Below, piece by piece: positions 21,601 to 24,600 of a stretch of DNA of 64,000 nucleotides. The stretch lies in NCBI RefSeq assembly GCF_003334305.1, contig NZ_QOWS01000001.1; one strand, given 5' to 3'. The position numbers are program-made. The number at the start of each line of letters is the position of its first letter. Within the stretch, counting starts at the first letter, position 1. The stretch is from Escherichia coli (lineage in GTDB: Bacteria > Pseudomonadota > Gammaproteobacteria > Enterobacterales > Enterobacteriaceae).

Positions 21601-24600
21601 ACAGCGAAGCGATTCGGGTAGTGCTGGCGATTATCGCCTTTGCCTCTATCATCTTCGGTAACCTGATGGCGCTGAGCCAGACCAATATCAAACGTCTGCT
21701 CGGTTACTCATCTATCTCTCACCTCGGCTATCTGCTGGTGGCGCTGATTGCGCTGCAAACGGGCGAGATGTCGATGGAAGCGGTAGGAGTTTACCTGGCC
21801 GGTTATCTGTTCAGCAGCCTCGGCGCGTTCGGCGTGGTCAGCCTGATGTCCAGCCCGTACCGTGGCCCGGATGCTGATTCCCTGTTCTCTTACCGCGGTC
21901 TGTTCTGGCATCGCCCGATCCTCGCGGCGGTGATGACGGTGATGATGCTGTCTCTGGCCGGTATTCCGATGACGCTGGGCTTTATTGGTAAGTTCTACGT
22001 GCTGGCGGTCGGTGTCCAGGCACACTTGTGGTGGCTGGTGGGCGCCGTGGTTGTCGGTTCGGCAATCGGCCTTTACTACTACCTGCGCGTGGCGGTGAGC
22101 CTGTACCTGCACGCCCCGGAACAACCGGGTCGCGATGCACCGTCAAACTGGCAGTACAGCGCAGGCGGTATCGTGGTGCTGATCTCTGCACTGTTGGTAC
22201 TGGTGCTGGGTGTATGGCCACAACCGCTGATTAGCATTGTGCGGTTAGCAATGCCGCTGATGTAAGCTATCAGTTTGTAAGTCAGAAAGCCGCCGACATG
22301 TTCGGCGGTTTTTTTTGGTGCCCTGACACCATCACCCAACAATAACCGTCAGCGCATGATTCCCTTGTCGCAGCATACGTCGATACGCGCTAATCAGCTT
22401 TTCCATATCAAGCATGATCGAAGCAAAGAGTTGCCCCTCTAACTCTTCTGAAAAGGTCACTCCCGGATAAATCTCCATTTCATTGAGTCGCTTAATGGAA
22501 AACTGTTTACGCAGCTCACTTCGATCCAGTGATTCCAGTCGGTCGATTGTCGCGGCTAACTCCTGATTCCAGGTCAATCCCAGGAAGCCATCTATGCCAT
22601 CTTCGAGGCTGTGTTCACCAAGCACGGCACGACTCAGCGGATCATTCTTCGCGGGATCAAAAGCAGAGGTGCCTGTCAGCCCAAAGTGTAAAAAATCCCA
22701 GCGTTTATCAATATCCAGTCGGCGTAATCCTGAAAGCGTGTCATGTATATTATCCATCAAAGGTTTTTCAGTAGACTCAAGCAGTTGGTTAATCTTTTCT
22801 GAGTCAATTTCTGCAAAATAACCAATCATTCCCATTTATTTTTCCTCCATTGAATTTTATGTTTCGCATCTTAAAACAGACGAGGGAAAATAAAATGTAC
22901 ATGTCGCTGTTTCTGGACCCGCCTCGAGAAATTTTTATTATTTACTGTTGTGTAACAAGGTTATAACACCATCTGAGCCATTTTCTGATAATTCAATCTG
23001 TCTGCTGTATCACCGGGCAAGTGGTATTGTTTATTACGATAAAAAGCGGTGTCAGTAATCATTACGGCGGGAATATCGTGTTGCCAATAATTCAGGTGGT
23101 CAGAGAAATCAATACCGGGAATAAACCATGGGGCATTCATAGAATAAACAGATAAATCCCGGGATGATAACAATGCCGTTTTTACCTGACGAACGGCGTT
23201 GATATCCTGTATTCTGCCGACCAGGCAATAAAGTCCCCCCGATCGGGATAAAGCCAGGACATTGCGGGTAAGGGTAATCCTGGCTACCAGGCGCAGAGTC
23301 GTAATAGCCAATCGGGGACGCCCTGCGCGGTAACTCTGGCACCGCTACTGACAAAGAACTCTTTTATATACTCTACGGACCTATTCAGATTATCAATATT
23401 GTCGGCATTACGTGGATGCACAGTTTGTGTAAGATAACGAACTGTTTTTTCTAATTGCTCAGGACTGACGTGTCGGGGCGTTGGCGATAATGCAGTGACC
23501 CAGGGTTGGTAAAAATAATCAGAGGGAGTGAAATCAGAAATAATATAACAAAAGGATTTTTTTTCATATATAAATTATCAATAAAAGACGTTATTTTATC
23601 ATTATTTATAATGAGTTATGAGTGTTTGTTTTATTACGGTTGTTAGATCTATACAAAAAGTATCTTTTACAGTGGCTTCGCTATTTTAAAAAGGAATTCA
23701 TATAAGGAAAAATATAATTATGTTATTTATTGGCAGATTGAGTTGACAGGGGGCAGAACTCTGAGGGTAAGAAAAGTCAGCAACAACAATCCACTACATC
23801 AACAGACCAGCAATCGCGTGCCGAGATACGCTGGAAATACCCGAAGATTGAACTGGCGGATGGTGTGACTGACATCAGTCAGTGATGACTTTTTAGCAAA
23901 CTATGTTCGACCAGTCAGCATATTTGCTGACTGGTCGAATTAATTAACTATGATGTTAACTTACTCTTTTGCCTGATGCTCTATTTTGGGGTTGTGAGTG
24001 TTTTATTTCTAAGTCTCTATAATAATCATTGATATTTGCATCGCCATATTTATCTAAATAACAATTTCTGTTTACCTGTCGATGTTGAAAATCAATTTCG
24101 TACTGCTCTTCTGCTGAATATTTTTTAAATCTGTCAGCATAGTTTTTTAATAACGTATAGGGGGCGCTGTCAGAATTGCTTTCCCTTTGTTCAATCACTT
24201 CCTGGGCTGCCATGCACACAAACGCACCGCAACTTTGGCTTAAGTATTGCTGAAGATCGGCATGTAAAAATATTATCTCTGGTTCATTTAAATGAACTTT
24301 TATATTATTATTCGACATTTCTCCCATGAGTTCAGAATTAAAACTATTAATGACACGCGTAAGTGAATTTTCTTTATCATGGCCTAGTGCACGCAATGAG
24401 TTGAATATGACGCATTTTATTTGTAGTTTATTATTTTTTTTATTTACTATTTTCTGTAGCGAAACTAATATCCAGTGTCCGCCAGTATTTATGGGGAATA
24501 ACTGGACTTCATTCGGTCATGATGGATCGCTCTTAATATTTTCATTGAGAGCGTCTTCCAGGTGAGTTCTGGTGGAGTAGGGGACGTAGAGACCAGTAGG

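What the first reader, a model, noticed from the sequence alone, without database searches (positions are those of the whole stretch)
22961..23567. yfbL is a multi-frameshift relic retaining its signal-peptide start
The minus-strand ATG at 23567 encodes a typical signal peptide (MKKNPFVILFLISLPLIIFT...) but reaches TAG after 38 codons. Peptidase-like coding sequence then continues in two other frames (ORFs 23109..23354 and 22961..23311). At least two frame changes are needed to join them, and the total span is shorter than I recall for the intact gene.
Basis: partly seen in the sequence, partly recalled or inferred. Interest (0 to 1): 0.35.

Follow-up and report, generated by a model that had tools for sequence, protein, structure and literature searches.

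The report
Dead yfbL peptidase gene remnant
This is an ordinary, already-annotated dead copy of the E. coli peptidase gene yfbL, killed by one 326-base deletion that removed its catalytic core and then eroded by small frameshifts; more than a third of sequenced E. coli carry the same dead allele.

Summary
The anatomy differs from the description. Base-by-base alignment to three intact alleles shows six deletions: -6 (in frame, A-run), -1 (T6 to T5), -326, -1, -1 and -7 (loss of one unit of a 7-nt tandem repeat). The homologous reading path uses all three frames with five switches, not two. ORF 23109..23354 is in the same frame as the ATG. The 326-bp deletion removes residues 88-196, which hold four of five M28 metal-ligand positions plus the catalytic Glu. 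Even a frame-repaired product is no recognisable M28 domain. This is not sequencing error: an 80-nt probe across the deletion junction matches 2,033 of 5,426 complete E. coli genomes, including O157:H7 and W. All nine sampled relic alleles share the junction but differ in the small lesions, so the deletion came first. NCBI's annotation pipeline (PGAP) already marks identical copies "frameshifted". The leader ORF is not conserved among relics (16-153 codons). The neighbourhood is also eroded: elaD nonsense codon, yfbK and yfbNOP absent. One speculative angle is a preprint reporting that K-12 yfbL knockouts resist phage N4.

The parts
22938..23567 (-). Whole yfbL pseudogene: 630 nt, from the ancestral ATG to the ancestral TAA
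   Evidence: Alignment to intact yfbL of K-12 (L002:4103-5074), L004 and L008, each 972 nt. PGAP places a 630-nt 'frameshifted' pseudogene at the same position in identical genomes.
23557..23564 (-). A8 run just after the ATG: site of the 6-nt in-frame length difference from intact alleles. The site is hypervariable among relics (-4, -5 or -6).
23516..23567 (-). Segment 1, frame of the ATG: MKKNPFVILFLISLPLI(I), the signal-peptide-like start
23511..23515 (-). T5 run that is T6 in intact alleles: 1-nt deletion, the first frameshift
23451..23453 (-). TAG that ends the 38-codon leader ORF. It is out-of-frame sequence relative to ancestral YfbL.
23314..23510 (-). Segment 2, second frame: YQPWVTALSPTPRHVSPEQLEK...SSGARVTAQGVP, corresponding to intact residues ~22-87, the non-catalytic N-terminal part
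23313..23314 (-). Junction of the 326-bp deletion (gene nt 262-587, residues 88-196). It removes the positions equivalent to H113, D115, D133, E165, E166 and E195.
   Evidence: The junction is present in 2,033 of 5,426 genomes.
23266..23313 (-). Segment 3, back in the ATG frame: IGYYDSAPGSQDYPYP
23265..23265 (-). Single G that is GG in intact alleles: 1-nt deletion
23224..23264 (-). Segment 4, second frame: AMSWLYPDRGDFIA
23223..23224 (-). CC|TGG that is CCGTGG in intact alleles: 1-nt deletion, not in a homopolymer
22974..23222 (-). Segment 5, third frame: VGRIQDINAVRQ...YHLPGDTADRLNYQKMAQ. It still encodes the equivalent of the last metal-ligand His (H294).
22967..22973 (-). Single GATGGTG unit: 7-nt deletion. 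O157:H7-type relics carry a perfect tandem GATGGTGGATGGTG here, so this is loss of one repeat unit.
22938..22966 (-). Segment 6, ATG frame again: GVITLLHNSK followed by the ancestral TAA (22938..22940)

Best explanation
Window 22938..23567 (minus strand) is a non-functional, vertically inherited pseudogene of yfbL, which encodes a secreted or membrane-anchored M28-family zinc metallopeptidase of unknown substrate.

In an ancestor within E. coli, one 326-bp internal deletion removed residues 88-196. That block holds four of the five metal-ligand positions and the general-base Glu, and its loss also shifted the frame. This abolished any peptidase activity. The dead allele then accumulated small indels under relaxed constraint:
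- length changes in the A/T run after the ATG;
- T6 to T5;
- two single-G losses;
- loss of one unit of a 7-nt tandem repeat.

The window carries all of these and is the most decayed allele sampled. What survives, the ATG plus about 18 signal-peptide codons and scattered in-frame pieces, is residue and not a working product.

Shown here: the lesions, their positions, loss of the catalytic block, population frequency, and a shared junction with differing secondary lesions. Inferred: the order of events, a single origin, and the absence of expression or function.
For: - Synteny: the gene order elaD - relic - yfbM - nuoN matches loci that carry intact yfbL.
- Six deletions summing to 342 nt (972 to 630) were found against three independent intact references (alignments).
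- The reading path through the frames is 0, 2, 0, 2, 1, 0.
- Intact YfbL matches Pfam Peptidase_M28 over residues 95-317 at E=6e-25.
- Alignment to Aeromonas aminopeptidase 1AMP places H113, D133, E165/E166 and E195 opposite H97, D117, E151/E152 and D179. All of them lie within deleted residues 88-196.
- The frame-repaired conceptual product matches only the last ~40 positions of the M28 model, at E=0.006.
- The 80-nt junction probe matches as one contiguous piece in 2,033 of 5,426 complete genomes. The deleted 326 bp are present in 3,311 genomes, and the locus in 5,354.
- All nine sampled relic alleles share the junction but differ in their secondary lesions. Strain R2 has almost only the deletion, and two strains have IS1 inserted as well.
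- The ORF from the ATG is 16, 36, 38, 94 or 153 codons long in different relics.
- pN/pS is 0.23-0.27 between intact alleles and 0.34-0.91 in comparisons that include a relic.
- PGAP labels the identical sequence 'frameshifted'.
Against: - No expression data are available, so transcription of the relic or translation of the 38-codon leader cannot be excluded.
- The pN/pS contrast rests on few substitutions (5-20 per comparison) and is only suggestive.
- The longest lesion-free piece (22974..23222, 83 codons) lies just upstream of the intact yfbM. It could be retained because it carries yfbM regulatory sequence and not purely by chance. The consensus promoter scan found sites there, but that is not evidence of function.
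- A single origin of the deletion is inferred from identical junctions in 9 alleles and one-piece matches in 2,033 genomes. It was not tested with a phylogeny.
Confidence: 0.95

Rival explanations
1. The gene is intact in the organism, and the breaks are sequencing or assembly errors such as homopolymer miscalls.
For: One lesion is in a T6 run and one lies beside an A8 run. These are the kind of sites where platform errors occur.
Against: The main lesion is a clean 326-bp deletion. Two other lesions are not in homopolymers. The whole 801-nt region is at least 99% identical in 1,243 records, and the junction is present in 2,033 independent complete genomes from many laboratories and platforms.
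Confidence: 0.01
2. The remnant keeps a function. Either a small secreted or membrane peptide is made from the leader ORF, or a truncated N-terminal protein is made, or the DNA is kept as promoter or regulatory sequence for the downstream yfbM.
For: The ATG and the hydrophobic leader are intact in this allele. Sigma-70-like matches lie upstream of the ATG and inside the 3' part of the relic, 9 found against 3.6 +/- 2.0 expected in shuffles. The relic has persisted without complete deletion in 2,033 genomes.
Against: The ORF from the ATG differs completely among relic alleles (16, 36, 38, 94 or 153 codons), and most lose the hydrophobic leader frame. IS1 insertions in the relic are tolerated. 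No Rfam family matches the region. The promoter matches are consensus hits in AT-rich DNA.
Confidence: 0.05
3. The loss was selected and not neutral. Inactivating yfbL removes a host factor needed by N4-like phages, or another cost, which would explain the high frequency of the null allele.
For: A preprint reports that Keio yfbL and yfbO knockouts of K-12 resist phage N4 and that plasmid complementation restores sensitivity (10.1101/2025.09.29.679331). The null allele is in 37.5% of complete genomes across distant lineages including O157:H7 and W. yfbNOP is present in only 1,013 of 5,426 genomes.
Against: There is a single unreviewed report, in one laboratory background, with no known mechanism. 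A single old deletion drifting and hitch-hiking with successful clones would give the same pattern. The genome collection is heavily biased toward clinical and outbreak lineages. No independent recurrent inactivations of yfbL were looked for, and recurrence is the usual signature of selected loss.
Confidence: 0.12

Closest known systems
E. coli K-12 yfbL (WP_000719999.1, 'M28 family metallopeptidase', 323 aa)
   Same: It is the orthologous locus between elaD/yfbK and yfbM. It is 95.1% identical over the 630 retained nucleotides and has the same start and stop positions.
   Different: K-12 has the full 972-nt ORF with all M28 motifs. The window lacks 342 nt in six deletions and has no continuous ORF. 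K-12 also carries yfbK and yfbNOP, which the window lacks.
PGAP pseudogene annotations in RefSeq E. coli genomes, e.g. BS635_RS24595 in strain KSC9 and ACVCLV_RS07635 in CUVET24-CCU25
   Same: The sequence is 100% identical and the extent is the same 630 nt. They are labelled 'frameshifted' and named 'hypothetical protein' or 'zinc-binding metallopeptidase family protein'.
   Different: Nothing differs. This is the same allele, already recorded as a pseudogene.
Intact yfbL on the same short haplotype (strains 266917_2 and AR_0114, WP_001551393.1 and WP_020233133.1)
   Same: They have the same gene order without yfbK or yfbNOP, and are 93-95% identical over the retained parts.
   Different: They have full-length 972-nt ORFs. 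This shows that absence of yfbK and yfbNOP is not tied to yfbL decay.
Aeromonas (Vibrio) proteolytica leucyl aminopeptidase, PDB 1AMP/1RTQ (M28 family, co-catalytic di-zinc site)
   Same: Intact YfbL aligns over the catalytic core (query 86-203 to chain 68-187, E about 1e-9) with the H, D, EE and D/E motif positions conserved.
   Different: It is a distant relative, with only the core alignable. The window's relic has lost exactly this core.

Membership tests
Peptidase family M28 (Pfam PF04389), as a functional member | Significant match to the M28 domain model | tested here: not met
   Intact K-12 YfbL matches residues 95-317 at E=6.3e-25. The frame-repaired conceptual translation of the relic matches only model positions 143-183 at E=0.0063, which is not significant. 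No single real ORF spans more than a fragment.
Peptidase family M28 (Pfam PF04389), as a functional member | Co-catalytic metal site: His, Asp, Glu, Asp/Glu and His ligands plus a general-base Glu (AAP H97, D117, E152, D179, H256 and E151; the functional roles are taken from my knowledge of the AAP literature) | tested here: not met
   Alignment to 1AMP puts YfbL H113, D133, E165/E166 and E195 at those positions. All lie in deleted residues 88-196. Only the H294 equivalent is still encoded.
Orthologue (by descent) of E. coli yfbL | Syntenic position and high nucleotide identity to yfbL across the retained sequence | tested here: met
   It lies between elaD and yfbM, as in loci with intact yfbL. 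It is 93.3-95.1% identical over 630 aligned nt.
Bacterial pseudogene (disabled relic of a once-functional gene) | Disabling lesions relative to intact homologues that are genuine and not sequencing artefacts | tested here: met
   Five frame-shifting deletions, including a 326-bp loss of the catalytic core. The junction is present in 2,033 independent complete genomes.
Bacterial pseudogene (disabled relic of a once-functional gene) | No conserved reading frame among copies of the disabled allele, and further independent decay | tested here: met
   Leader ORFs are 16, 36, 38, 94 and 153 codons in different relics. Secondary lesions differ between relics, and some carry IS1 insertions.
Bacterial pseudogene (disabled relic of a once-functional gene) | Relaxed purifying selection on the remaining codons | tested here: inconclusive
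   pN/pS is 0.23-0.27 for intact-versus-intact pairs and 0.34-0.91 for pairs that include a relic. Each comparison has only 5-20 substitutions.
Bacterial pseudogene (disabled relic of a once-functional gene) | No functional protein product expressed | not testable with these tools
   This needs transcriptomics, ribosome profiling or proteomics in a relic-bearing strain.
Programmed ribosomal frameshift or recoded gene | A conserved slippery site whose use restores a full-length functional product | tested here: not met
   Five separate frame changes would be needed. The catalytic core is physically absent. The frameshift sites are not conserved among relic alleles.

The most novel reading that the evidence does not exclude
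The yfbL null allele, together with absence of yfbO on the same haplotype, may be a standing, selected host-range polymorphism. Strains carrying it would lack a host factor that N4-like phages need, which would help explain both the high frequency of the dead allele across distant E. coli lineages and the narrow host range of N4. This rests on one preprint's K-12 knockout and complementation data plus the frequencies measured here. No link was tested here.
Probability: 0.1. Interest if true: 0.5.

Novelty: already known. Interest (0 to 1): 0.13.

Why it matters
It matters little on its own. This is a routine pseudogene that NCBI's pipeline already flags. It has three modest uses:
- The exact lesion list lets annotators label the locus 'yfbL pseudogene, internal deletion plus frameshifts' in place of 'hypothetical protein, frameshifted'.
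- The shared 326-bp junction is a simple binary marker that splits complete E. coli genomes roughly 38% to 61%. The nested secondary lesions give a small worked example of the order of pseudogene decay.
- If the reported role of yfbL in phage N4 infection holds, about a third of sequenced E. coli are natural nulls. That is relevant to phage host-range prediction.

Tried and rejected
- **Sequencing error:** rejected on population evidence.
- **Junction in other species:** I scanned one representative genome per species (GTDB r220) for the deletion junction and found no match. There is therefore no evidence that the deletion predates E. coli or occurs elsewhere. The E. coli representative itself evidently has the intact allele.
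- **Overlapping RNA:** the Rfam scan of 22200..25400 at a permissive E-value gave only three sub-threshold chance hits and nothing over the relic.
- **Promoters and terminators:** the scan found more promoter-like sites than shuffles, but in AT-rich DNA. I treat it as uninformative.
- **Conserved small ORF at the leader:** rejected, because the reading differs in every relic lineage.
- **Microhomology at the 326-bp deletion ends:** none is visible in the alignment (CCCC|ATTAC...GAGAT|GATTGG), so no repeat-mediated mechanism can be claimed for the big deletion. The 7-nt loss does sit in a tandem repeat.
- **The 'SDH' histidine as the surviving ligand:** I first assumed this. The 1AMP alignment showed that the ligand equivalent is H294 in YHLPGD.
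- **pN/pS:** computed, but there are too few substitutions for a firm conclusion.
- **Literature:** only 12 papers in the held library mention yfbL, and none describes this pseudogene.

Full report
**What is at the coordinates**

On the minus strand, an ATG at 23567 opens a 38-codon ORF (MKKNPFVILFLISLPLIIFTNPGSLHYRQRPDTSVLSN) that ends at TAG 23451..23453. Further ORFs lie at 23284..23421, 23109..23354, 23182..23262 and 22961..23311. The neighbours are nuoN (20808..22265, +), an intact 167-aa yfbM (22332..22835, -), a split elaD (23956..25176, -) and rbn. This is the E. coli nuoN–yfbM–yfbL–elaD–rbn region.

**Identity and existing annotation**

A 4.5-kb stretch around the finding is 100% identical to many complete E. 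coli chromosomes. In those records PGAP annotates a 630-nt pseudogene at exactly this place. It is flagged 'frameshifted' and named 'hypothetical protein' or 'zinc-binding metallopeptidase family protein'. In K-12-type genomes the same position holds yfbL, a 972-nt 'M28 family metallopeptidase'. Two strains, 266917_2 and AR_0114, carry intact yfbL in the same short gene order as the window, without yfbK or yfbNOP. They are therefore the fairest references.

**Lesion list**

Alignment to all three intact references gives the same six deletions:

| # | Lesion | Window position | Note |
|---|---|---|---|
| 1 | -6 nt, in frame | A-run after the ATG, 23557..23564 | |
| 2 | -1 nt | 23511..23515 | T6 becomes T5 |
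| 3 | -326 nt | junction C23314 \| G23313 | gene nt 262-587 |
| 4 | -1 nt | 23265 | GG becomes G |
| 5 | -1 nt | 23224 \| 23223 | CCGTGG becomes CCTGG |
| 6 | -7 nt | 22967..22973 | one GATGGTG unit remains |

The sum is 342 nt, so 972 becomes 630. The ancestral TAA at 22938..22940 happens to be back in frame with the ATG. The homologous path through the three frames is 0, 2, 0, 2, 1, 0, which means five switches.

The two pieces in the remaining frame were missed. Over the retained 630 nt the relic is 93.3-95.1% identical to intact alleles.

**What was lost**

Intact YfbL matches Pfam Peptidase_M28 over residues 95-317 (E=6e-25). Its closest solved relatives are bacterial leucyl aminopeptidases.

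The 1AMP alignment puts YfbL H113, D133, E165/E166 and E195 opposite chain residues H97, D117, E151/E152 and D179. It puts H294 opposite H256 (motif positions). From my knowledge of the AAP literature, those are the di-zinc ligands and the general base.

The deletion removes residues 88-196, that is four of five ligand positions plus the base. Even a conceptual product with all frames repaired matches only the last ~40 positions of the M28 model, at E=0.006. No peptidase can be made from this allele.

**Not an artefact, and common**

- The 801-nt region is at least 99% identical in 1,243 records.
- I used an 80-nt probe centred on the deletion junction, with an E-value limit strict enough that a 40-nt half-match cannot pass. 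It matches as one piece in 2,033 of 5,426 complete genomes, including O157:H7 strains and LY180, which I believe derives from E. coli W.
- The deleted 326 bp are found in 3,311 genomes.
- 2,033 + 3,311 = 5,344 of the 5,354 genomes that hold the locus, so the two states account for nearly all of them.
- The collection is biased toward clinical, outbreak and laboratory strains, so 37.5% is not a natural allele frequency.
- No species-representative genome in GTDB carries the junction.

**Order of decay**

Nine relic alleles were compared. All share the identical 326-bp junction.

| Strain or lineage | Lesions beyond the 326-bp deletion |
|---|---|
| R2 | only a length change in the 5' A/T run |
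| KFu022 | adds T6 to T5 |
| O157:H7 type | an extra A and both single-G losses, but keeps the 3' end as a perfect GATGGTGGATGGTG tandem |
| W lineage | lacks the second G loss |
| MS 115-1 | all lesions, with a -4 version of the 5' run |
| Window | all lesions |
| VL40 and KTa005 | IS1 also inserted |

The window's 7-nt loss is removal of one unit of the tandem repeat seen in the O157:H7 type. I infer that the big deletion was the founding event and that the small indels are later, lineage-specific decay. The window has the most eroded allele sampled. The distribution of secondary lesions is not perfectly nested, which suggests either recombination among relic alleles or recurrent slippage at the same runs.

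pN/pS is 0.23-0.27 among intact alleles and 0.34-0.91 in comparisons that include a relic. This fits relaxed constraint but rests on few substitutions.

**Residual function**

The ORF from the ATG is 16, 36, 38, 94 or 153 codons in different relics, and most lose the hydrophobic leader frame. The 'retained signal peptide' is therefore a peculiarity of this allele's in-frame -6 version and not a conserved product. No Rfam family matches. Promoter-like matches are above the shuffle expectation but lie in AT-rich DNA. A role of the 3' part as yfbM upstream sequence cannot be excluded without experiments.

**Neighbourhood**

- elaD in the window has TGG changed to TGA at 24517..24519. The 404-aa ORF that starts at the second ATG is thereby split into the 219-aa piece and a 3' remainder, within which one search lists a 146-aa ORF. 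PGAP calls this 'internal stop' in the identical strain KSC9.
- yfbK is absent. The 388-bp spacer keeps about 40 nt of its 3' end and a 70%-identical trace of its 5' end. yfbK is present in 2,540 of 5,426 genomes.
- yfbN-yfbO-yfbP are absent between yfbM and nuoN, and are present in only 1,013 genomes.
- The whole elaD–yfbP block is a variable, eroding region, and only yfbM is intact in the window.

**Literature**

Only 12 papers in the held library mention yfbL, and none describes the pseudogene. One preprint (10.1101/2025.09.29.679331) reports that K-12 yfbL and yfbO knockouts are specifically resistant to phage N4 and that ASKA plasmids restore sensitivity. This suggests, but does not show, that natural nulls could matter for phage host range. 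I give that reading about 10%.

**Verdict**

The useful corrections are:
- The primary lesion is a 326-bp deletion of the catalytic core.
- There are five frame changes.
- The relic ends at 22938.

Noticed in passing
window 24517..24519 (elaD, 23956..25176, minus strand): elaD carries a TGG to TGA nonsense codon at codon 220, which splits the deubiquitinase gene. PGAP marks it 'internal stop' in the identical strain KSC9, while other relic-bearing strains have intact elaD.
   Followed up: yes
window 23568..23955: The 388-bp elaD-yfbL spacer looks like a yfbK deletion scar. The first 110 nt are 98% identical to K-12 sequence running into the last ~40 nt of yfbK, and nt 133-367 are 70% identical to the yfbK 5' end plus the yfbK-yfbL spacer. 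yfbK is present in 2,540 of 5,426 complete genomes.
   Followed up: partly
window 22266..22331: Only 66 bp separate nuoN and yfbM. The K-12 genes yfbN, yfbO and yfbP are absent here, and they are found in only 1,013 of 5,426 complete genomes, nearly all at 99% identity or higher.
   Followed up: partly
L007 (NZ_CM135829.1, labelled 'DH5alpha'): This record carries the relic allele, and across the yfbL stretches displayed it reads the same as the W-lineage strain LY180 (L013). It has no yfbK or yfbNOP, unlike genuine K-12 derivatives, so the strain label is probably wrong.
   Followed up: partly
L011 (strain VL40) and hit H1 (strain KTa005): IS1 elements are inserted inside the yfbL relic in some strains. 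In VL40 the insertion truncates the 5' part.
   Followed up: no
L004 4837..5295 (strain 266917_2): An IS200/IS605 tnpA sits between yfbM and nuoN, at the site where K-12 has yfbNOP. The junction is therefore a recurrent insertion or replacement point.
   Followed up: no
window 23920..23955 (minus strand): A perfect 14-nt inverted repeat (TTCGACCAGTCAGC AAATAT GCTGACTGGTCGAA) lies just after the elaD stop codon. It is probably the elaD terminator hairpin. The weak Rfam snoRNA hit over it is chance.
   Followed up: no
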